Shown here: positions 34,999-52,194 of the stretch, piece after piece
How the letters are laid out: every line of letters starts with the position of its first letter
How positions within the stretch are numbered: the stretch's first letter is position 1
Assembly (NCBI GenBank): GCA_025829515.1
Contig: GCA_025829515.1_4865.1
DNA: 64,000 nucleotides
DNA from: a phage
Strand: one strand, 5' to 3'
Made by a program: the position numbers and the translations under genes
The notes under the pieces: model-generated
Database searches by the model: none
What the model was told of the DNA's origin: nothing
What the model saw: the letters and a program-made list of their open reading frames with translations, nothing else

Positions 34999-35004
34999 TC
35001 TCGT

Positions 35005-35037
35005 CATCGGGGGTCTTGTACCCCCTTCTTATTTTTT
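35005..35037 (+). terminator. rho-independent terminator (GGGGG-TCTTGTA-CCCCC, T-run)
   Basis: GC stem followed by TTCTTATTTTTT. Confidence 0.55.
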
Positions 35038-35058
35038 AACCGTAAAGAGTATTTAACC

Positions 35059-35640
35059 ATGCCACAACCAATTATTGAACAACATGAAATGAACTACGAA
35101 GAACTGACCCGCCGCTATCGCGTGAAAGCCCCACGGGTAGTAGAAGGTTGCGAGAAATACAAAGAAGCAGACTTCGTGGTATTCCAACGCGAAGGTGTTC
35201 CGATGATGGTGTTCGTAAAACACGTCACCACCGATAACGACGCCCGTCTAGTGATGTTGTATAACGTAATGGCTACCGTACTAGATACCGATATTGGACT
35301 GTTACGTCGTTATAAATCATCCTACGAACAGAAAGCGAAGGTAGTTGCTTTTGACTTACCACGCACGGTACTAGTAGATGGTTCCCGTCCGGCTATTCTT
35401 CGTTTTACGAAAAGCGAAGACGACAGTAACCCAGCGCATATTGTTCAGCCACTAACGCTGTCGCAAGATACGTTACAGCAGAACGGCGGGATGGATTGGC
35501 TAAACGTCATGTTACCGGGCCTAGCTGAAGGTCAGGAATTGCATCTGGTTTGCTACACCCCATCCGTCGAGCACACCTATGCGCGTTACCTTACCGAAGA
35601 ACACGGTTTCCGTAACCACCGCGGTATTTACATTGCGTAA
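35059..35640 (+). CDS. hypothetical protein (193 aa)
   Basis: ORF track; ATG; codon usage consistent with neighbours. Confidence 0.45.
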   Translation: MPQPIIEQHEMNYEELTRRYRVKAPRVVEGCEKYKEADFVVFQREGVPMMVFVKHVTTDNDARLVMLYNVMATVLDTDIGLLRRYKSSYEQKAKVVAFDLPRTVLVDGSRPAILRFTKSEDDSNPAHIVQPLTLSQDTLQQNGGMDWLNVMLPGLAEGQELHLVCYTPSVEHTYARYLTEEHGFRNHRGIYIA

Positions 35641-35649
35641 GGTGAATGT

Positions 35650-36213
35650 ATGTTCCGTTTACTAGAAATTCGAAACGATATCTGGCAAGAGCACATCCGC
35701 AACGATCCGGAGTGGGAAGGAGTTGAACGTGATTTACCGGATAACCCCGACCAGCTGCTGGTATTCCTTTATAGCGATAAGGCTAAACAGATCAAGGGGA
35801 TATTTGAACGTAAAACGACAAGCTTGTCGACCTTACTGAGCTGCATTTGCTGCGGCGTCAGTGAGCTTGATCCCAATCTATTCACCAACTATCTTGCGCG
35901 TAAAGTCCGTACACCGCTACTGGAGGTTACACTCCCGCCAGATATTCGTATCAGTAAAACCGTACCGACCGTTTTGCGTTTACAGGATGTGTCTGGTAGT
36001 AGCGACGACGGGGAAACAACGATTACCCTTTCCTCGTCAGAGAGTGAACTCGCAACCGAATCGTTTCTTAGCGAAGTCGAGGCCGGATTAAAGCAGGACG
36101 TAATCGTCTATAATCTCGGCGGTGTGCCCATTGATCCCATTTTACACTTCTTTGAAAGCCAAACCTGCCATCTCGTAGAAAGCTTAACATACCACTTTAA
36201 AGGAGCTTTATGA
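35650..36213 (+). CDS. hypothetical protein (187 aa)
   Basis: ATG with AAGGTG RBS. Confidence 0.45.
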   Translation: MFRLLEIRNDIWQEHIRNDPEWEGVERDLPDNPDQLLVFLYSDKAKQIKGIFERKTTSLSTLLSCICCGVSELDPNLFTNYLARKVRTPLLEVTLPPDIRISKTVPTVLRLQDVSGSSDDGETTITLSSSESELATESFLSEVEAGLKQDVIVYNLGGVPIDPILHFFESQTCHLVESLTYHFKGAL

Positions 36214-36740
36214 TGAAACTCGAAGGCTACGTTGTTACTGATAAACCTTTTGCTGAAGCCAACCTGTCGCGTTCACAGGTTGTTTATAAAGACATCGATG
36301 TGCCTGCCGAAATCGTTAAAGCGAATCCCAGCTGGCTAATCAACCACGTTTCTTTGGAAATCACCAATCCGTTTATCAACGATCCAACCGACCCATTTGT
36401 CGACATGGGTAATTTCCGCGATATTCTTTCCCCACATCAATACCAGACAGTGGCACAGAAGAAAGGGAAGCTGCTCACTGAAACGAATGAGTGGGAGCGT
36501 ATCCAAGAGCGTCATCCTGAAAAGGGTTTGATGGAAATTTATCACCAACACCCTAAAGAGTTTGACAAATTACCTCTGTGGGCATCGGTGGCGTATAACT
36601 GCAGTGGGATATATGACCATCTGTTGCTGAGCGGATACGATGGCGCAATACACGCAGCCGAAGGCCCGCACACGCCGGTAACTGTTTATCACACATTTCA
36701 CCCAGCGCGCATCACTTTCATCGAAACGTTGAGTGTGTAG
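36210..36740 (+). CDS. hypothetical protein (176 aa)
   Basis: ATGA start/stop overlap with the upstream gene; AAGGAG RBS. Confidence 0.5.
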   Translation: MMKLEGYVVTDKPFAEANLSRSQVVYKDIDVPAEIVKANPSWLINHVSLEITNPFINDPTDPFVDMGNFRDILSPHQYQTVAQKKGKLLTETNEWERIQERHPEKGLMEIYHQHPKEFDKLPLWASVAYNCSGIYDHLLLSGYDGAIHAAEGPHTPVTVYHTFHPARITFIETLSV

Positions 36741-36747
36741 TTTATCT

Positions 36748-36786
36748 CCAGTAACCACGAGGGTTACTGGAGTCCTCTTATTTTTT
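36748..36786 (+). terminator. rho-independent terminator (CCAGTAACC...GGTTACTGG, T-run)
   Basis: 9-bp stem followed by CTCTTATTTTTT. Confidence 0.55.
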
Positions 36787-36819
36787 ACACTTAACTCAAA
36801 TTAATTTGAGGTGTGGTAT

Positions 36820-37407
36820 ATGACAGAACGTATTTTACGACTGCAAGAGAACAGGTTAGAAGACCTGCACGTAATGCGTAGTCGTGGCTTGTTCCCAGTG
36901 GGGCTTGACGTAAGTGGGTTAATAACTTCTGCGCAGCACGGGGACAAGGTCATTACAATGCATTCACGTGGGAACGAAGTGGTCTCTGCGATTTTCATCG
37001 ATAAGGTTATTCCGGACTCGGAAAGTGGTAAGGCGGCGGGACACATCATTTACGAATACTTTCGCAGCATTCTATACGAGGAAAAGATAAACGTCAAAAC
37101 GTTTATGGAATACGCTAAGCGAAATAACTACATCGATGCGCGGCTGATGGTCACGGAAGGCACTCCAACTATAAACGGTAAAGTCCACCATCGTTTACTT
37201 GGAGCACAGTTGCCGAGACTAGGCGAGATACCAACGACGATAGAGCTGCACCAAAAAACAGATTGGCGACACAAAATCGAAGTGCTTCACAAGCTTTACG
37301 ATTTATCGATCGTTCAAATCAAACTGGTGGACTTTACGCCTGCAAATATGCAAATCGCTAAGCGCGCGTTGGGTTTTCGTATTCTTAACACAACCTTCAC
37401 ATTGTAA
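36820..37407 (+). CDS. hypothetical protein (about 195 aa)
   Basis: Start chosen at ATG 36820 (GAGGTG RBS); the track begins at GTG 36811. Confidence 0.45.
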   Translation: MTERILRLQENRLEDLHVMRSRGLFPVGLDVSGLITSAQHGDKVITMHSRGNEVVSAIFIDKVIPDSESGKAAGHIIYEYFRSILYEEKINVKTFMEYAKRNNYIDARLMVTEGTPTINGKVHHRLLGAQLPRLGEIPTTIELHQKTDWRHKIEVLHKLYDLSIVQIKLVDFTPANMQIAKRALGFRILNTTFTL

Positions 37408-37457
37408 AATATCTCAGATATATATTACCTAGGTGAGAGTTAAGAGATTAACTCAAT

Positions 37458-37486
37458 GGCTACCTTCGGGTAGCCTATTCTTTTTT
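37458..37486 (+). terminator. rho-independent terminator (GGCTACC-TTCG-GGTAGCC, T-run)
   Basis: 7-bp stem, TTCG loop, followed by TATTCTTTTTT. Confidence 0.6.
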
Positions 37487-37511
37487 AAACCAATCGACTA
37501 TAGAGCAAAAC

Positions 37512-37913
37512 ATGACTATCAAGAAGTTCTTACAAACAGTAGTAGTTCTGGCCGCATGTGGTATCGCAGCAACTTATGCTTTCGATAAGCCAGACGTGAC
37601 TGAATACACATCAGCTGATTCGGATTATGGCATTGCGCCGAATGAAAAACCGGAACTGATGCGTGAGGTCGAACAGTTACAAATCTACAGACTGACGGAC
37701 GGTAAGAACTGCACAGGGCTGGTTATCGCTGATAAGAAATTGAAAATGTATCAGCGGTTAATCGACATATCGTGCAATCAACCAAAAGTCACCTCGGTCA
37801 GTGTATCGCCACTGGAATTACCGAATTTGGTTGCTGTGAGCTTTTATCACAACGATGTGCTCGTCGGTCGCATCACCCTCAATCGTGGAGATATCAAAAA
37901 TGAAATGCAATAA
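37512..37913 (+). CDS. small secreted protein / lipoprotein, Cys-containing family member 1 (133 aa)
   Basis: N-terminal signal sequence with possible lipobox LAAC; first of four tandem secreted small proteins. Confidence 0.45.
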   Translation: MTIKKFLQTVVVLAACGIAATYAFDKPDVTEYTSADSDYGIAPNEKPELMREVEQLQIYRLTDGKNCTGLVIADKKLKMYQRLIDISCNQPKVTSVSVSPLELPNLVAVSFYHNDVLVGRITLNRGDIKNEMQ

Positions 37914-38391
37914 CGTTAATCGCCACTTGGCCAAAGTGGTGCTTTTTACTGTGCTGTTGATGGCAGTTGTTGTTGGGCTACGGATTTCTAAGGCGCACGC
38001 TGACGAATTCAGCGGGTTCCAGGGCAGTATTAACGGCAGCATTCCAGCATATACCCGCACCATCAATCTTAATGATAAGCCGTTCTGGTGCAATGCGCGT
38101 AAGCTGCTTAAGAAACAGTGTCGTGTAGTTGACATATCCTTCAACGGACGTGTCGCTATCGTACACCGTCCGGGCGATAAAGATTGCCCAGGTGGTTGGT
38201 GGGGTGCAGTCGACCGTCACAACGGTGACGCGTTATGGCTTATCCCTAATCGTGATGAACTATCAGTGGAGAAAATTTGCAGCAAAGATTTCAGGGCCGG
38301 TTTTGTACAGCGACCGGATACCAAAACTCTGGCATCCATCGCTATGTACTACGGTATGGAAACCATCAAAACAATCGACTATTCAGAATAA
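37900..38391 (+). CDS. small secreted protein, Cys-containing family member 2 (about 163 aa)
   Basis: Start chosen at ATG 37900 (MKCNNVNRHLAKVVLFTVLLMAVVVG signal peptide). PFWCNA...C..V...DCPGGWW motifs are similar to ORF 38414. Confidence 0.5.
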   Translation: MKCNNVNRHLAKVVLFTVLLMAVVVGLRISKAHADEFSGFQGSINGSIPAYTRTINLNDKPFWCNARKLLKKQCRVVDISFNGRVAIVHRPGDKDCPGGWWGAVDRHNGDALWLIPNRDELSVEKICSKDFRAGFVQRPDTKTLASIAMYYGMETIKTIDYSE

Positions 38392-38413
38392 CTCAAAAAA
38401 TTGAGGTACTATT

Positions 38414-38824
38414 ATGAAACATTTTTTATTACCAGTTTTACTTGCTACTCTGGCCATTAGCTTCTTCGCTCGCGCTGGAAGTATCGAGTTACCAAAAGTT
38501 GTTAACGATCACGAATACGGCGGGCCGTTCTGGTGCCAGAACTCTGACGTACAAGGCGGTAGCTGTCAGATCGTTGCGATGTCCGATAACAACCGTTACC
38601 TGTTAGTGAAAACGATGGGCGGTGTCGCATGTGGCGACCCTGAATACGGGGTTATTAACATGGCAACAGGTCAGGCCGAATCCATGAACTACAATGATAA
38701 CCAAGCCTGTAGCGGTGAAGCCGTTGCTGAGTTTACTCGCGACCCAGGTGATAATGCCCTGACGGTTATCATGTACGACCCTACGATTAAGAAAAACGTA
38801 GGCATCAATAAACTCGACTTTTAA
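38414..38824 (+). CDS. small secreted protein, Cys-containing family member 3 (136 aa)
   Basis: Signal peptide MKHFLLPVLLATLAISFFARA; GPFWCQN...C..V...CGDPEYG; GAGG RBS. Confidence 0.5.
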   Translation: MKHFLLPVLLATLAISFFARAGSIELPKVVNDHEYGGPFWCQNSDVQGGSCQIVAMSDNNRYLLVKTMGGVACGDPEYGVINMATGQAESMNYNDNQACSGEAVAEFTRDPGDNALTVIMYDPTIKKNVGINKLDF

Positions 38825-38837
38825 GTAAGGAAACAAC

Positions 38838-39221
38838 ATGCGTGGATTTATGGGTATTATCGCGGCGGTGTTCTTGACCGCTTCTGCTTCAGCTACAACC
38901 AGCGTAGAAGATTTACTGCCAGGCACACCGTATCAGTACAACCCGCCTTCATTCGAAGTCTGTACTGGCGACGATGGCAGATGTGAAGAAGTCAGCCGTC
39001 ACGACGAGTATATCCTGGTCCACGCAAAGGGCGAGGAAACTTGTCCGGCTGGTTACTACTTCTTGTTGAACTCAAAGGCACAAGAGATTGTGCCGGTAGA
39101 GACAATAACGTGCGACCCGACGCTTCGCGCGTCGCTCGCTTACAATACGAAAACCAAACAACGCCTCCTGGTTATTGAACAGCAAGGGGTGGTGCGTGGT
39201 TCAGTAGCGCTCGACCAGTAA
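38838..39221 (+). CDS. small secreted protein, Cys-containing family member 4 (127 aa)
   Basis: Signal peptide MRGFMGIIAAVFLTASASA; Cys spacing similar to the neighbours; AAGGAA RBS. Confidence 0.5.
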   Translation: MRGFMGIIAAVFLTASASATTSVEDLLPGTPYQYNPPSFEVCTGDDGRCEEVSRHDEYILVHAKGEETCPAGYYFLLNSKAQEIVPVETITCDPTLRASLAYNTKTKQRLLVIEQQGVVRGSVALDQ

Positions 39222-39350
39222 CCGAAAAGTTTTCAGACAGATGTTATAACGTGAGATGACGACCCATCTCACTTTGGCCCTGCGGTGATTTCCCCAACAC
39301 TTAGCCGCAGGGTCCTTTTTAATCGACTATTACTCGTAAGGATTAAGCAA

Positions 39351-39851
39351 ATGAACATGAACATTCTCGACGATACCCGTTCTTCTTTCTTTACTCAGAT
39401 GAACGTCAATCCCGAACGTACCCGTGCCATTCTTTCCACTGGCTGGAAGTTAAAGCTGTTAGGCGAGTTAACCCTAAACCGCACCGACTGGCCAGAAGAA
39501 GCGACCGTATTGATTAACAGCATTCACAGCGAGTGGCTAGATGCTGCGTTGAATGCCCCACAACTACGTCCGTACTATCGGATGCTTCATGCGGGTTATG
39601 AAGTATACCGCAAAGGTTGGTACGCTGCAGCCACTTATTGCAAAACCCCTGAAGGTCGTGAAGACAACACTGTCGACCACGTATTAGTAAACAATTTCTG
39701 GGGCGACCAAATCGAAGTCTTACAACTTTCCACCGGTGACCGTATTCCGGCCTGTGAGTTATTCGAAACTAACGCACAAATGTACGAACCATATGCAATG
39801 ATTCGTGGCCGTAAGGTCCCAATCATTTCCCTTATGCATATGGGGCTGTAA
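39351..39851 (+). CDS. hypothetical protein (about 166 aa)
   Basis: Start chosen at ATG 39351 (AAGGA RBS) rather than the upstream track start. Confidence 0.45.
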   Translation: MNMNILDDTRSSFFTQMNVNPERTRAILSTGWKLKLLGELTLNRTDWPEEATVLINSIHSEWLDAALNAPQLRPYYRMLHAGYEVYRKGWYAAATYCKTPEGREDNTVDHVLVNNFWGDQIEVLQLSTGDRIPACELFETNAQMYEPYAMIRGRKVPIISLMHMGL

Positions 39852-39858
39852 ATACGAG

Positions 39859-39890
39859 AGGTAGCCTACGGGCTACCTTCTTTTTTTGTT
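39859..39890 (+). terminator. rho-independent terminator (AGGTAGCC-TACG-GGCTACCT, T7 run)
   Basis: 8-bp stem followed by TCTTTTTTTGTT. Confidence 0.6.
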
Positions 39891-39905
39891 GAAGAAGGAT
39901 TAAAC

Positions 39906-40532
39906 ATGAACGAGATTACCCTGATTCGTTTCATCGACGACATGGTGACGTGTCAGAAAGCGAATCGTCAGGATACCAAACTACGTATCAATCTGATGGA
40001 AGAAGAGGTAGAAGGGTTTCTGGAATACCCGCGATTGGTGAAGTGGTTTAAAGAAGCACTGCCGCGTAGCTGGGAACAGCTCGAAGCGTGGTTTGCTCTA
40101 CCTATTGCAGAACGTAATCCCAATAATACGATCTTCACCGGAACTACTGCATTAGATTTGGCTGGTTCGGTGGAGCAACCTAAACGTTTAGTTTTCTTCT
40201 ACGTCAATGGCGATTCAATAATGGCTGATACAGTTAACTGGATTTCCGATGAGTTAACTGTAAACACCACTTTGGTCGGTAGCGCTGCTGATGCCTGGGT
40301 TGTTGGTCAGCACCAATCGCAACCGTACGAAGAAATCAAAACCGGTTATTTAATCCCGATATATCTCGACGGCGTGGCACCCGGTCGTAGTGCCGAACTG
40401 TTCAAATTCCTGCTTACTGAAACGTTAAAGGTTGTCGATTCTGATGCCGGACGTGCGTGGTACGAATTAACCAAAGAGCGCACCGATAGTTTTTGGGAAT
40501 CACTCGGACACCGTAAGTTTATTCCGCAATAA
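39906..40532 (+). CDS. hypothetical protein (208 aa)
   Basis: ATG with GAAGGA RBS; followed by a terminator. Confidence 0.5.
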   Translation: MNEITLIRFIDDMVTCQKANRQDTKLRINLMEEEVEGFLEYPRLVKWFKEALPRSWEQLEAWFALPIAERNPNNTIFTGTTALDLAGSVEQPKRLVFFYVNGDSIMADTVNWISDELTVNTTLVGSAADAWVVGQHQSQPYEEIKTGYLIPIYLDGVAPGRSAELFKFLLTETLKVVDSDAGRAWYELTKERTDSFWESLGHRKFIPQ

Positions 40533-40543
40533 CTCTCCTCTCT

Positions 40544-40575
40544 GGAACCCTTCGGGGTTCCATTTCTTCTTTTTT
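40544..40575 (+). terminator. rho-independent terminator (GGAACCC-TTCG-GGGTTCC, T-run)
   Basis: 7-bp stem, TTCG loop, followed by ATTTCTTCTTTTTT. Confidence 0.6.
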
Positions 40576-40628
40576 ACGCATGACCTTTTGGATATGAACG
40601 ACTAATACTTTCTCATTAGAAGGCAAAC

Positions 40629-44237: not shown

Positions 44238-44753
44238 GTGAAAGCTCACTTAGGAATTCAGCTCATGGCCGAAATTGTCATTCTTTCCTCATCCTCAGAT
44301 TTAACGGAAGCACAAAATAAACAGCTGTTGGGGCTGCATTATAAATTTCTGAACCACCAACGTACCATACTCCATATCGAAAAAGGTGAGATTCCGAACC
44401 TCACTCTGGAGAAACTGTTGGCGGGGAACCGTGCCTGCGTTGCTCTGGAAGGGGGCACCCCTGTTGGTTACTGTTTGTATCGCGTAATCGCTGGGGTTCT
44501 GAAGATTCGTACGATGTTCGTGTCCGAAATGGCACGCCGTCGCAAAACGATGACGCAGATTTTTGATGCGCTTGATGTGAATGAGCAGTTCACCAGTGCG
44601 CATGGGGGAATATACGCTTGCCAGGAAGCTGGTATTGCGTTCTTTACCGCTCGCGGTTTTGACAAGACCGTCTCTACAGACGGACAATGGCTTGAATTTA
44701 AGAAGCAGGTTCCTGCGGAAGCAGATGAACCTTTAAGGACTGCGGTAGCATAG
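44238..44753 (+). CDS. hypothetical protein (up to 171 aa; an ATG at 44265 is an alternative start)
   Basis: ORF track; weak RBS; no confident motif (an acetyltransferase-like fold was considered but is not supported). Confidence 0.4.
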   Translation: MKAHLGIQLMAEIVILSSSSDLTEAQNKQLLGLHYKFLNHQRTILHIEKGEIPNLTLEKLLAGNRACVALEGGTPVGYCLYRVIAGVLKIRTMFVSEMARRRKTMTQIFDALDVNEQFTSAHGGIYACQEAGIAFFTARGFDKTVSTDGQWLEFKKQVPAEADEPLRTAVA

Positions 44754-45476: not shown

Positions 45477-45725
45477 ATGCAAAAAACAATCATCGGAATA
45501 ACGGTTGGTTCTTTCTGTGGCTTCCCTACCCCACAAACAGAACCCCAATATTTGGGCGCAGGCAAACCTGACCCGGAAGTCCGTAAGTTGCGCGAAGAAG
45601 CAAAAGCCAGAGTTCTTACTGAGCTGGAATCGTTGCTTCAGTCTCCGGTTATTTCACAATGGGGTATGGCAATAGATGTCACTCGAACTGATCGACGAGG
45701 CCGTTATCTCCCACGACTTGTTTAA
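45477..45725 (+). CDS. hypothetical small protein (82 aa)
   Basis: TAAATG stop/start junction with AAAGGAA RBS; its 3' end overlaps the next gene by 50 nt. Confidence 0.3.
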   Translation: MQKTIIGITVGSFCGFPTPQTEPQYLGAGKPDPEVRKLREEAKARVLTELESLLQSPVISQWGMAIDVTRTDRRGRYLPRLV

Positions 45726-46176
45726 CGCGCCTGAGCGCTTCAAGGTCGTTACAGTTAACTGCGTTGGTGCAATGGGAAGGGGCATTGCCTTGGCGTGCCG
45801 AGAACGCTTCCCATCGCTTTATAATGACTATCGCCAGAAATGCCGTAAAGAGCAAATCGTTATCGGTGAGGTCTATTGTTATCCTGAGGAAGGGGTAATA
45901 CTCCTTCCTACTAAAACCCATTTTCGCTATAAATCGCAGATTTACTATGTCACGTCCGGCATTGATGCGCTGGCGCGACTAGGGGAAGACTTAGAAGGAG
46001 GGATTGCGATACCACCCCTAGGGATGGCTAACGGTTGGTTACGTTACCATGAGCGATTGGAAATCTTTATACACTTACAGAAACGACTACAGCACACGGA
46101 GCAGACTTATCGATTCTATTTACCGGACACCTTGCTGAGGGAAGCAGAGAAAATCATCCCAAATAGTTTCAAATAG
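45676..46176 (+). CDS. macro-domain-like protein (putative ADP-ribose binding / processing), 166 aa
   Basis: VNCVGAMGRGIA (compare macro-domain NAAN..L..GGGV.GAI) and IAIPPLGMANGW (compare IAFPAISTGVYG) match the two hallmark macro-domain motifs by eye. Confidence 0.45.
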   Translation: MSLELIDEAVISHDLFNAPERFKVVTVNCVGAMGRGIALACRERFPSLYNDYRQKCRKEQIVIGEVYCYPEEGVILLPTKTHFRYKSQIYYVTSGIDALARLGEDLEGGIAIPPLGMANGWLRYHERLEIFIHLQKRLQHTEQTYRFYLPDTLLREAEKIIPNSFK

Positions 46177-46275: not shown

Positions 46276-46998
46276 ATGTTTCGCACCATTTTATTTCTTC
46301 TGGTAGCAATGACTACGTTCAACAGCAACGCTTCTTACCAGACCACCAGTAACAAACACCAAAAAGAATTCGTCCTTATCCAGGACCAGTTCAATGAGAT
46401 TAAACCTCTCATCGTCACCGCATCTCGAAAACAAGGCGTACATGCCGGGATGCTCGCGACCACCATTTATCGTGAATCCCGTTTTAATAAAAACGTGGGT
46501 AAGAATAAATCGAGCAGTGCTAGTAGTGTTGTCCAAATGACGACAGGCACTAAACGCTCCATGATACGTCTGTATGGGAAACAACTTAACATCCCAAAGA
46601 ATGCGGACCTTAATAAACCGAAGTATGCTGTACAGCTTGCTGCCGTTTACATGAAACACATCGAGGATCATCTGACAAAACAACTCAAACGCAAGCCGAG
46701 CACAGCCGAAATCGCTTTAGGCTACCGCTTCGGTGAGGGTGCTGCTGTTGCGATGATTAAAAAGAAATCACCGGTCGGGAAACGCTGGATGGCCAGCTAC
46801 CGAAAAGACGCAGCATTCTACGGTGCGAAAATGACACCACCGAAAGCTGAAACACGTCAGCTTGCTTTTGCGAAGGAAGACCGCGACCAACGCGTCGCTG
46901 AGCTTCAGAAAATCTGGGATACGCTGTACACCAAAATATCACCTGCGGCCGGTACATTACTGGCAAATAACACTATCATGAAAGGAGCATTGCTTTGA
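46276..46998 (+). CDS. secreted lytic transglycosylase-like (SLT-domain) protein, 240 aa
   Basis: Signal peptide MFRTILFLLVAMTTFNSNA; RESRFN (catalytic E-S), VVQMT (compare GLMQ) and LGYRFGEGAA (compare AYNAG) resemble the SLT domain motif order. Confidence 0.4.
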   Translation: MFRTILFLLVAMTTFNSNASYQTTSNKHQKEFVLIQDQFNEIKPLIVTASRKQGVHAGMLATTIYRESRFNKNVGKNKSSSASSVVQMTTGTKRSMIRLYGKQLNIPKNADLNKPKYAVQLAAVYMKHIEDHLTKQLKRKPSTAEIALGYRFGEGAAVAMIKKKSPVGKRWMASYRKDAAFYGAKMTPPKAETRQLAFAKEDRDQRVAELQKIWDTLYTKISPAAGTLLANNTIMKGALL

Positions 46999-51714: not shown

Positions 51715-52194
51715 ATGAAGTTATTTTTGGTGGCGATACTGGTGCTATTGTTGACAGGATGCCCTGGAGCCATCCGTCACGTAGACCCAGATTACTCCTC
51801 AACCGGAGATTGGCCTTTTCGTCCTTTAGAACACCCACCAGTTTATGCTGGTGGGAACAGTCCTGAGGTGAAAAAGCTGGCAGGGAAAATGTTTGTTGCG
51901 GATGTGAACGCTTATGCTTATTACGTTTATCTGTACGCTAAGTCGTTGAACAATTACGCAGAAGCTAAGGGGTGGCGCACCCCGATGGCCGCACCGCTTT
52001 GTGAAGAGTTTATTCGCCCCACTCTTCATGATATACCCTCCGGGATATATCTCGACCCTGGTTCTCGTAGCCCTCAAGACATTAGTCGTGATTTGTCACG
52101 ACAGATTAAGTCTCTCATTCGCAGCTATCGCGAAGACAGAGAGTCTTTTAATCATGCCTACGAACGGCACAAAAGTAGTTGCCTTGTGCAATGA
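51715..52194 (+). CDS. lipoprotein, o-spanin-like candidate (159 aa)
   Basis: Signal peptide with lipobox LTGC; GAGGAG RBS. Longer than typical o-spanins, so the assignment is tentative. Confidence 0.35.
   Translation: MKLFLVAILVLLLTGCPGAIRHVDPDYSSTGDWPFRPLEHPPVYAGGNSPEVKKLAGKMFVADVNAYAYYVYLYAKSLNNYAEAKGWRTPMAAPLCEEFIRPTLHDIPSGIYLDPGSRSPQDISRDLSRQIKSLIRSYREDRESFNHAYERHKSSCLVQ

What the first reader, a model, noticed from the sequence alone, without database searches (positions are those of the whole stretch)
37512..39221. Tandem family of four small secreted cysteine-containing proteins
Four consecutive genes encode 127-163-aa proteins with N-terminal signal peptides (one with a possible lipobox) and conserved Cys spacing (PFWC...C...V...C[PG]). 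Periplasm-targeted phage paralog families of this kind are candidates for superinfection exclusion, receptor masking or inhibition of host periplasmic enzymes.
Basis: partly seen in the sequence, partly recalled or inferred. Interest (0 to 1): 0.5.

Follow-up and report, generated by a model that had tools for sequence, protein, structure and literature searches.

The report
Tandem secreted YfjS-like jumbo-phage proteins
A giant Salmonella phage carries four neighbouring genes for small proteins that are exported to the space between the host's two membranes; they prove to be distant relatives of an uncharacterised E. coli cryptic-prophage lipoprotein (YfjS/YafY), and their function is still unknown.

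Summary
The window is an SPN3US-like jumbo phage, and the four ORFs are SPN3US gp180-gp183, all annotated as hypothetical. They form one unit between terminator-like hairpins, are under purifying selection, and each starts with a Sec-type signal peptide.

- **Family:** p2, p3 and p4 are clear paralogues with four conserved Cys. p1 is a probable distant member with only the last two Cys. Its lipobox is not conserved in orthologues.
- **Conservation:** the order p1-p3-p4 is kept across five jumbo-phage lineages; p2 is a lineage-specific extra.
- **Fold:** the p3 model is confident, all-beta and resembles two propeller blades. No solved structure matches it, and no conserved catalytic residues are present.
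- **Relatives:** the family is tiny (38 clusters among 1.84 billion representatives). The other members lie in enterobacterial CP4-57-like islands, in the slot that holds yfjS-yfjT in K-12. Profile and fold comparisons link the family to YfjS/YafY (PF20494).
- **Functional lead:** in some islands a p4-like domain is fused to an Ivy-like lysozyme/transglycosylase-inhibitor domain.

Best guess: non-enzymatic periplasmic binders, perhaps guarding against peptidoglycan-cleaving enzymes. That mechanism is inferred, not shown. Interest is moderate.

The parts
37458..37486 (+). Terminator-like hairpin (GGCTACC-ttcg-GGTAGCC) plus T-run, closing the gp179 unit upstream of the array
   Evidence: Terminator scan; RNA fold; sequence read
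37512..37913 (+). p1, the SPN3US gp180 homologue (133 aa). Signal peptide about residues 1-24, with a possible lipobox LAAC (Cys16). The mature domain has 2 Cys (67, 88), which align with Cys3/Cys4 of the family. Falls in phrog_9424.
37900..38391 (+). p2, the gp181 homologue (163 aa). Long n-region, strongly hydrophobic core, AHA|D cleavage site; 4 family Cys (64, 74, 96, 127). Overlaps the end of p1 by 14 nt. Falls in phrog_17072. It is a lineage-specific extra member and the fastest-evolving of the four.
38414..38824 (+). p3, the gp182 homologue (136 aa). Signal peptide residues 1-21 (ARA|G); Cys 41, 51, 73, 99. Falls in phrog_8968. The AlphaFold model is an all-beta domain resembling two propeller blades.
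38838..39221 (+). p4, the gp183 homologue (127 aa). Signal peptide residues 1-19 (ASA|T); Cys 42, 49, 69, 92. Falls in phrog_5248. It is the member closest to E. coli YfjS/YafY and to the C-terminal domain of the Ivy-like fusion proteins.
39251..39320 (+). Two stable hairpins (39251-39272 and 39276-39314) followed by a T-run. This is the terminator-like end of the four-gene unit.
   Evidence: RNA fold -34.5 kcal/mol, z -4.15, 0 of 200 shuffles as stable; sequence read

Best explanation
The four genes form one transcription unit. It encodes Sec-exported, disulfide-stabilised, non-enzymatic beta-proteins of about 105-130 mature residues that act in the periplasm of the infected cell. They are the jumbo-phage branch of a small superfamily that also includes the YfjS/YafY lipoprotein domain and its 4-Cys relatives in CP4-57-like integrative islands of Enterobacterales.

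The conserved trio p1-p3-p4 probably acts as a set of distinct binding modules, possibly as a complex, rather than as redundant copies.

The most likely activity is binding and neutralising peptidoglycan-cleaving enzymes in the periplasm. Candidate targets are the tail lysozymes or transglycosylases of superinfecting phages (as T4 Spackle does) and/or the phage's own exported SLT transglycosylase.

Shown: the genes are real, co-oriented and bracketed by hairpins; they have signal-peptide architecture and conserved Cys; they are paralogous; their distribution and island context are as described; a remote YfjS/YafY relation exists. Inferred: actual export, disulfide formation, binder rather than enzyme, and the target.

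My sub-confidences are: exported paralogue family 0.9; YfjS/YafY superfamily relation 0.75; peptidoglycan-hydrolase inhibition or exclusion mechanism about 0.3.
For: - **Export and disulfides:** signal peptides in all 35 members examined, a disordered N-terminus in the model, and invariant Cys with no other invariant polar residues.
- **Operon:** four co-oriented genes with short or overlapping junctions, lying between terminator-like hairpins.
- **Old, non-redundant set:** the same p1/p3/p4 order occurs in Seoulvirus, Erskinevirus, Machinavirus and Wellingtonvirus, and in a distant 223-kb jumbo-phage contig.
- **Mobile-element restriction:** only 38 clusters among 1.84 billion representatives. 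The non-phage members lie in CP4-like islands, in the yfjS slot.
- **YfjS link, sequence:** phrog_5248 (the p4 family) is the best of 38,880 PHROGs for K-12 YfjS, E 4e-5 over the full length. hhalign on mature domains, YfjS against p4: 76% probability, E 2e-5.
- **YfjS link, structure:** the YfjS model has the same strand order as p3, and its top BFVD hits are the same Erwinia jumbo-phage proteins.
- **Inhibitor lead:** in Salmonella, E. coli and Edwardsiella islands the p3-like gene is paired with a secreted protein. Its N-domain is Ivy-like (Pfam Ivy E 0.004, below cutoff; PGAP name 'inhibitor of vertebrate lysozyme family protein'). Its C-domain matches the p4 family (76% probability, E 2.4e-5, four Cys in register).
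- **Literature:** Ivy proteins inhibit lysozymes and, weakly, lytic transglycosylases (PMC10139938). T4 Spackle is a periplasmic inhibitor of the incoming tail lysozyme (PMC7677548).
- **Candidate target in the window:** the phage encodes an SLT transglycosylase with its own signal peptide 7 kb downstream.
Against: - No experiment or annotation gives a function for any member. YfjS/YafY is itself of unknown function; YafY overproduction merely activates Cpx (PMC6538781).
- The Ivy link is by fusion and neighbourhood in bacterial relatives, not in the phage. The Ivy match is below Pfam's cutoff, and the loop (CEQGNC) lacks the His of the E. coli Ivy CKPHDC motif as I recall it (from my own knowledge).
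- The remote-homology statistics are moderate (probabilities 67-83%), and they drop when signal peptides are removed from the broad alignments.
- The YfjS model is of only medium quality (pLDDT 66), and its TM-scores to the phage proteins are 0.37-0.46.
- PF20494 itself does not match p1-p4.
- Signal peptides were judged by heuristics, not by SignalP.
- The evolutionary rates of p1-p4 resemble those of their neighbours, so there is no sign of an arms race.
Confidence: 0.4

Rival explanations
1. Receptor or entry-site masking. The exported proteins bind an outer- or inner-membrane component used for adsorption or DNA entry, as T5 Llp, Cor or T4 Imm do. They would block superinfection, or inactivation of progeny on cell debris, without touching peptidoglycan enzymes.
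For: - The family is exported and found only in mobile elements.
- p1 carries a lipobox in SPN3US-like phages, and YfjS is an inner-membrane lipoprotein.
- Small disulfide-bonded beta lipoproteins such as Llp do this job (PMC9586334).
- The island slot lies among anti-restriction and establishment genes, where exclusion functions are plausible.
Against: - The lipobox is not conserved even within Seoulvirus, and p2-p4 are soluble types.
- The same family occurs in phages of Salmonella, Erwinia and a Shewanella-linked contig and in several enterobacterial genera. A single conserved receptor is therefore not obvious.
- Nothing points to a specific receptor.
Confidence: 0.2
2. Envelope-stress or physiology modulators, or a structural periplasmic assembly. 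The two-blade modules would oligomerise, for example into a heteromeric pseudo-propeller, and would remodel or signal from the envelope (Cpx-type effects) to favour phage production.
For: - The best structural matches are two-blade pieces of beta-propellers, including engineered two-blade fragments that assemble into propellers.
- Three to four distinct paralogues are kept in a fixed order.
- YafY overproduction activates Cpx (PMC6538781).
Against: - Bacterial islands often carry a single copy, so oligomerisation of different paralogues is not required.
- Cpx activation on overproduction may be non-specific.
Confidence: 0.12
3. Part of the lysis machinery in the classical sense (spanin, antiholin or holin accessory), rather than an inhibitor set.
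For: Exported or membrane-anchored small proteins, one of them with a lipobox. An exported SLT enzyme lies in the same 10-kb region.
Against: - The fold is all-beta and globular. It lacks the coiled coil of an i-spanin and the short proline-rich form of an o-spanin.
- The genes are not adjacent to the SLT gene: the SbcC-like gene and several others lie between them.
- Homologues occur in non-lytic integrative islands that lack lysis genes.
Confidence: 0.08
4. No shared function. The hydrophobic N-termini would be membrane anchors or chance features, and the genes dispensable accessory cargo with unrelated roles.
For: No function, phenotype or virion association is reported. gp180-183 are not mentioned in the main text of the SPN3US essential-gene and virion study. 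p1 is only weakly related to the others.
Against: - Purifying selection on all four genes.
- Signal-peptide architecture and Cys pattern conserved over deep divergence.
- Gene order conserved in five lineages.
- Signal-peptide ORFs are clustered far beyond the window's background rate.
Confidence: 0.08

Closest known systems
YfjS/YafY lipoprotein domain family (Pfam PF20494; E. coli K-12 cryptic prophages CP4-57 and CP4-6)
   Same: - Small exported beta-proteins carried by mobile elements.
- The same order of seven strands in the models.
- Cys3/Cys4, the CxxG-YY-L segment and the C-terminal strands align over the whole mature domain with p4.
- Bacterial p2-like and p3-like homologues occupy the yfjS slot of CP4-like islands, one of them next to a YfjT-family gene.
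   Different: - PF20494 does not detect p1-p4.
- YfjS/YafY are lipoproteins with Asp at +2 and only two domain Cys. p2-p4 are soluble types with four Cys; p1 has two Cys and a non-conserved lipobox with Gly at +2.
- The phage genes come as a tandem set of three or four, in a virulent jumbo phage.
- The function of YfjS/YafY is itself unknown (PMC6538781).
T4 Spackle (Sp, gp61.3), periplasmic superinfection-exclusion protein
   Same: A small phage-encoded protein exported to the periplasm of the infected cell. It is a model for what a periplasmic inhibitor of an incoming tail lysozyme looks like (PMC7677548).
   Different: - No sequence relation was found.
- Spackle is, as far as I recall, helical, whereas this family is all-beta.
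- Spackle is a single gene, not a paralogue array.
- Binding to a tail enzyme has not been tested here.
Ivy / MliC-PliC periplasmic lysozyme and lytic-transglycosylase inhibitors
   Same: Small periplasmic, disulfide-containing, non-enzymatic binders. An Ivy-like domain is fused to a p4-like domain and lies next to a p3-like gene in enterobacterial islands.
   Different: - p1-p4 themselves have no Ivy or MliC match.
- The fused Ivy-like domain scores below Pfam's cutoff, and its CEQGNC loop lacks the His of the CKPHDC motif.
- The fold is different.
T5 Llp and Cor-type exclusion lipoproteins
   Same: Small exported phage proteins that act at the envelope. Llp is a disulfide-bonded beta lipoprotein (PMC9586334). 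p1 has a lipobox in this window.
   Different: The lipobox is not conserved in p1 orthologues and is absent from p2-p4. There is no sequence similarity, and no receptor is implicated.
Two-blade fragments of beta-propellers (TolB/PD40- or WD40-like blades)

Membership tests
Sec (type I) signal-peptide proteins | Tripartite N-terminus: a positive n-region, a hydrophobic h-region, and small residues at -3/-1 before the cleavage site | tested here: met
   Heuristic scan: all four window proteins and all 35 relatives pass. Residues 1-21 of p3 are disordered in the model. No SignalP run and no experiment.
Bacterial lipoproteins (type II signal peptide) | Lipobox [LVI][ASTVI][GAS]C at the end of the h-region, conserved among orthologues | tested here: inconclusive
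   p1 has LAAC (Cys16, Gly at +2) in the window and in SPN3US. SPAsTU, phiEaH2, ChrisDB, Wellington, Machina and the Shewanella-linked orthologue lack it. p2-p4 have none.
Single paralogue family comprising p1-p4 | Significant sequence or profile similarity among all four, with Cys in register | tested here: met
   p2-p3 BLASTP E 7e-8 and p2-p4 E 1.5e-4. p3 against p4 profiles E 3e-11; p1 against p4 profiles 83% probability, E 9.5e-6 on mature domains. The p1 score exceeds 100 of 100 shuffles. p1 is the weakest link.
YfjS/YafY lipoprotein domain (PF20494) | Match to the Pfam model at or above its gathering score | tested here: not met
   No Pfam family at E <= 1 for any of p1-p4, whereas K-12 YfjS scores 228 bits.
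YfjS/YafY lipoprotein domain (PF20494) | Remote homology: profile-profile and fold similarity over the whole domain | tested here: met
   YfjS to phrog_5248 (the p4 family) E 4e-5, the top hit among 38,880 families. hhalign on mature domains 75-76% probability, E 2e-5. The YfjS model's top BFVD hits are the phage family, E 5e-4 to 1e-2, although TM-scores are only about 0.4 and the model pLDDT is 66.
YfjS/YafY lipoprotein domain (PF20494) | Inner-membrane lipoprotein anchor (lipobox plus Asp at +2) | tested here: not met
   YfjS has LSAC-DD. p2-p4 have type-I cleavage sites, and p1 has Gly at +2 with a non-conserved Cys.
YfjS/YafY lipoprotein domain (PF20494) | Position in CP4-57/CP4-6-like islands, between the YfjP-like GTPase or WYL regulator and the DUF932/antirestriction/RadC/CbeA-CbtA module | tested here: met
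   This is true of the bacterial p2-like and p3-like homologues P0101, P0016, P0021, P0077 and P0060, compared with K-12. It does not apply to the phage genes themselves.
Ivy (PF08816) lysozyme/transglycosylase inhibitors | Match to the Ivy model, and the CKPHDC-type inhibitory loop | tested here: not met
   p1-p4 have no match. Only the neighbouring or fused island protein matches, at E 0.004 and 17.8 bits against a cutoff of 21, with the loop CEQGNC.
T4 Spackle-type superinfection exclusion | Binds and inhibits the lysozyme or transglycosylase domain of an incoming tail | not testable with these tools
   This needs binding and inhibition assays or infection experiments. Only the predicted periplasmic location is shared.
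Spanins / holin-antiholin lysis proteins | Adjacency to the endolysin or holin, an i-spanin coiled coil or a short proline-rich o-spanin, and embedded or overlapping gene architecture | tested here: not met
   The fold is globular and all-beta. The SLT gene lies 7 kb away, with SbcC-like and other genes between. Homologues occur in islands that lack lysis genes.
Known anti-phage defence proteins (PADLOC) | Match to a defence-system model | tested here: not met
   No PADLOC hit for p1-p4 or their island homologues at E <= 0.1.

The most novel reading that the evidence does not exclude
gp180-183 would be the first described periplasmic arm of a nucleus-forming jumbo phage. In this reading the YfjS-like binding modules neutralise lytic transglycosylases. 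That would protect the infected cell against the tail enzymes of superinfecting phages and hold the phage's own signal-peptide-bearing SLT enzyme in check until lysis. The enterobacterial island relatives (YfjS/YafY, and the Ivy fusion pair) would be the same kind of exclusion device. That would also give a function to a long-standing E. coli y-gene family.
Probability: 0.2. Interest if true: 0.65.

Novelty: new variant of a known kind. Interest (0 to 1): 0.35.

Why it matters
- **An unexplored side of jumbo phages.** These phages are studied almost entirely for what they do inside the cytoplasm (nucleus, spindle, RNA polymerases). A 2026 review of their biology does not contain the words periplasm, secreted, signal peptide or superinfection.
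- **A defined entry point.** A conserved set of exported proteins offers a concrete way into how these phages deal with the cell envelope.
- **A link to E. coli y-genes.** The remote relation to YfjS/YafY connects the phage genes to an uncharacterised family and to a variable 'secreted cargo' slot of CP4-like islands. A function found in either system would inform the other.
- **Practical use.** SPN3US-like phages are candidates for Salmonella biocontrol, so exclusion or lysis-control functions would matter for designing phage cocktails.
- **Current status.** As it stands, this is a well-defined family of unknown function, not a discovery of mechanism.

Tried and rejected
- **Direct annotation.** Pfam, NCBIfam and PADLOC scans of p1-p4 found nothing. 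Sequence searches of PDB chains with the family, p1 and YfjS profiles found nothing credible; the best hit was a designed ThreeFoil protein at E 0.004.
- **Early-promoter motif.** The phiKZ-type early-promoter motif as I recall it, TATATTAC, lies upstream of p1. It occurs once in the window against 1.7 expected by chance, so I dropped it. No sigma-70-like promoter stands out.
- **Inflated statistics.** hhalign on full-length alignments is inflated by signal peptides: E 5e-5 fell to 2.4e-3 for YfjS against the broad p2-4 alignment. I redid the comparisons on mature domains, with subfamily profiles and shuffles.
- **p1 against YfjS directly.** Only E 0.04-0.08. I therefore do not claim that p1 is the YfjS orthologue, despite the suggestive FYH..VGRI / YSH..MGRL motif.
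- The single-protein scan of viral contigs returned only SPN3US itself.
- **Unavailable data.** The SPN3US infection-proteomics paper (PMC6384053), which could give expression timing, is not held.
- **Probable false hits.** The large multi-repeat proteins in the exhaustive search are probably Cys-rich repeat matches: P0072, which I read, is a T9SS-sorted repeat protein, while P0065 and P0066 were not examined.
- **Neighbouring genes.** gp176-179 and gp184-185 gave no functional context.
Full report
**Identity of the window and the genes.** A 3.8-kb stretch of the window around the array (36800-40600) is 97-98.5% identical to SPN3US-like Salmonella jumbo phages, genus Seoulvirus. The four ORFs correspond to SPN3US_0180 to 0183, all annotated as hypothetical. 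They lie upstream of gp184, gp185 and the essential SbcC-like gp186 (PMC5105663). That paper's main text never mentions gp180-183.

For p2, the 163-aa reading from 37900 is preferred over the longer ORF from 37855. It has a GGAG ribosome-binding site, matches the SPN3US annotation and matches the orthologue starts.

**Are they real genes, and one unit?** All four are under purifying selection: dN/dS is 0.03-0.19 against SPN3US, and pN is far below pS against SPAsTU and phiEaH2. They are co-oriented, with a 14-nt overlap and gaps of 22 and 13 nt. A hairpin plus T-run ends the preceding gene (37458-37486). Two strong hairpins plus a T-run follow p4 (39251-39320; z -4.15). No promoter could be identified. 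A TATATTAC motif upstream of p1 is no more than chance would give.

**Signal peptides.**
- Each protein starts with 1-3 basic residues, an uncharged hydrophobic core of 15-21 residues, and an AXA-type site: p1 TYA|F, p2 AHA|D, p3 ARA|G, p4 ASA|T.
- All 35 phage and bacterial relatives examined have the same architecture.
- The only low-confidence part of the p3 model is residues 1-21.
- In a rough scan of 62 non-overlapping ORFs in the window, six had such an N-terminus. Three of them are in this array, and p2 also passes when read from its proper start.
- p1 also has a lipobox (LAAC, Cys16, Gly at +2). It is missing from the orthologues in SPAsTU, phiEaH2, ChrisDB, Wellington, Machina and a distant contig. 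Lipidation is therefore at most a lineage-specific feature.
- These are heuristic calls; SignalP and LipoP were not available.

**Paralogy.**
- p2, p3 and p4 are plainly related: BLASTP p2-p3 E 7e-8 and p2-p4 E 1.5e-4; reciprocal PHROG cross-hits; p3 family against p4 family by hhalign on mature domains, 97% probability, E 3e-11.
- Three Cys are invariant and one nearly so across 18 sequences. No other polar residue is invariant, which argues for a binding module rather than an enzyme.
- p1 (phrog_9424) lacks the first Cys pair and the 'PFWC' segment. Its two Cys align with Cys3 and Cys4.
- The p1 family matches the p4 family at 83% probability, E 9.5e-6, without signal peptides.
- Against the whole p2-4 alignment, the real p1 score of 26.8 exceeds the maximum of 18.9 from 100 column-shuffled controls.
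- I treat p1 as a probable distant member.

**The array is old.** The order p1-like, p3-like, p4-like recurs in Erskinevirus (phiEaH2), Machinavirus (Machina, ChrisDB, SNUABM4) and Wellingtonvirus (Wellington, which adds a fourth divergent copy). It also recurs in a roughly 223-kb jumbo-phage contig binned with Shewanella, where the three genes lie directly upstream of the SbcC-like gene. p2 is present only in the SPN3US, SPAsTU and phiEaH2 lineages and evolves fastest. A fixed order of distinct paralogues over such divergence suggests non-redundant roles, possibly a complex. It does not look like recent diversifying duplication. Divergence of p1-p4 between phages is similar to that of their neighbours.

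**Distribution.** An exhaustive HMMER search of 1.84 billion cluster representatives found only 38 clusters at E <= 1e-3. Apart from jumbo phages, they come from chromosomes of E. coli, Salmonella, Klebsiella/Enterobacter/Citrobacter (one cluster with 1,037 members) and Edwardsiella, which has several copies per genome.

In every case inspected, the bacterial gene lies in a CP4-57/CP4-6-like integrative island. It sits between a YfjP-like GTPase (often with a WYL regulator) and the DUF932, antirestriction, RadC, DUF987 and CbeA/CbtA module. In E. coli K-12 that slot holds ypjK, yfjS and yfjT. The p2-like protein P0101 is followed by a YfjT-family gene.

**Relation to YfjS/YafY.**
- K-12 YfjS is the type member of Pfam PF20494, which does not detect p1-p4.
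- Against 38,880 PHROGs, the single best hit of YfjS is phrog_5248, the p4 family, at E 4e-5 over the full length. A divergent YfjS gives E 2e-5.
- On mature domains, hhalign of YfjS against the p4 family gives 75-76% probability, E 2e-5, over 100 columns. Cys3, Cys4 and the CxxG-YY-L segment are in register.
- A medium-quality YfjS model (pLDDT 66) has the same strand order as p3. Its top hits in the whole viral structure library are the same Erwinia jumbo-phage proteins (E 5e-4 to 1e-2, TM-score about 0.4).
- Together with the shared island slot, I consider a common origin likely (about 0.75). The phage proteins are not members of PF20494 as that family is defined.
- This transfers no function. 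YafY is an inner-membrane lipoprotein of unknown function whose overproduction activates Cpx (PMC6538781). I found nothing on YfjS or YfjT.

**The one functional lead.** In Salmonella, E. coli and Edwardsiella islands, the p3-like gene is paired with a secreted protein of 295-312 aa.
- Its N-terminal part resembles Ivy: Pfam E 0.004, below the cutoff. PGAP calls it 'inhibitor of vertebrate lysozyme family protein'. The loop reads CEQGNC.
- After a Pro/Ala-rich linker, its C-terminal part matches the p4 family. hhalign gives 76% probability, E 2.4e-5, with all four Cys in register. phrog_5248 is its only PHROG hit.
- A p3-type protein and a p4-type domain therefore travel together in bacteria as they do in the phage, in one case welded to a domain whose relatives inhibit lysozymes and, weakly, lytic transglycosylases (PMC10139938).
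- The window also encodes, 7 kb downstream, an SLT-domain transglycosylase with its own signal-peptide-like N-terminus. The same arrangement is seen in the distant contig. Conserved synteny is weak evidence for a functional link.

**Interpretation.** I conclude that these are exported, disulfide-stabilised binding modules that mobile elements use at the envelope. The most likely activity is neutralising peptidoglycan-cleaving enzymes. This could be Spackle-like exclusion of incoming phages (PMC7677548) and/or restraint of the phage's own exported transglycosylase. That step is inference, at about 0.3.

The rivals are:
- receptor or entry masking, as with T5 Llp (PMC9586334);
- an oligomeric or stress-modulating role;
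- classical lysis proteins, which is unlikely given the fold, the position and the island homologues;
- no common function, which is unlikely given the conservation.

**Novelty and score.** The genes are already catalogued as hypothetical proteins and as PHROGs of unknown function. In the papers I could search, I found none of the following described:
- their status as an ancient, ordered set of exported proteins;
- the remote link to YfjS/YafY;
- the Ivy-domain fusion.

A 2026 review of jumbo-phage biology does not mention periplasmic or secreted proteins at all. This is a soluble four-Cys, tandemly expanded variant of a known but uncharacterised kind. It is moderately interesting and readily testable, but no mechanism is established.

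Noticed in passing
window 46276-46998 (+): A 240-aa SLT-domain lytic transglycosylase (Pfam SLT E 2e-6; phrog_4067 'transglycosylase'). It has its own signal-peptide-like N-terminus (MFRTILFLLVAMTTFNSNA|S) and an RESRFN catalytic-Glu motif. It is therefore an exported or membrane-tethered cell-wall enzyme, and a candidate endolysin and possible partner of the array.
   Followed up: partly
L026 6657-7703 and 11611-12297 (a ~223-kb contig binned with Shewanella): A distant jumbo-phage contig keeps p1-like (113 aa), p3-like (121 aa) and p4-like (108 aa) genes in the same order, directly upstream of its SbcC-like gene. An SLT gene lies about 4 kb further on.
   Followed up: partly
L008 10477-11415; L012 10476-11414; L025 6060-6947: Enterobacterial CP4-like islands encode a secreted two-domain protein: an Ivy-like N-domain, a Pro/Ala-rich linker, and a C-terminal four-Cys domain of the p4 type. 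It always lies next to a p3-like gene. The gene order is reversed in Edwardsiella.
   Followed up: partly
window 51715-52194 (+): A 159-aa ORF with a canonical lipobox (MKLFLVAILVLLLTG|C). It falls in phrog_8165, of unknown function, and is another predicted envelope protein of this phage.
   Followed up: no
window 44238-44753 and 45676-46176 (+): A GNAT-like acetyltransferase ORF (21 bits, about at the cutoff) and a Macro-domain-like ORF (21.7 bits against a cutoff of 22). They lie between the SbcC-like gene and the SLT gene.
   Followed up: no
window 35000-40600: Terminator-like hairpins with T-runs follow almost every gene or small gene group: 16 found against 6.2 expected from shuffles. 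This suggests many short transcription units.
   Followed up: no
L002 2333-2572; L006 2345-2584; L003 2848-3099; L004 2761-3006; L007 2809-3048: A 79-83-aa ORF without a signal peptide lies between the gp179 homologue and the p1 homologue in phiEaH2, SPAsTU, ChrisDB, Wellington and SNUABM4. It is absent from the window and from SPN3US.
   Followed up: no
Salmonella phage SPFM assemblies (for example LR535903, LR535907, LR535912; proteins P0006-P0011, P0036-P0045): These records carry fragmented, frame-shifted versions of gp181-183, matching in 4-40 short pieces. They look like sequencing or assembly errors rather than biology.
   Followed up: no
L014 1944-6857; L012 85-4004: The CP4-like islands that carry the bacterial homologues also carry anti-phage systems next to the conserved module. 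One is a Qat system (qatABCD). Another is an OLD-family ATPase-nuclease with a UvrD-like helicase, which I read as Gabija-like from its domains.
   Followed up: no
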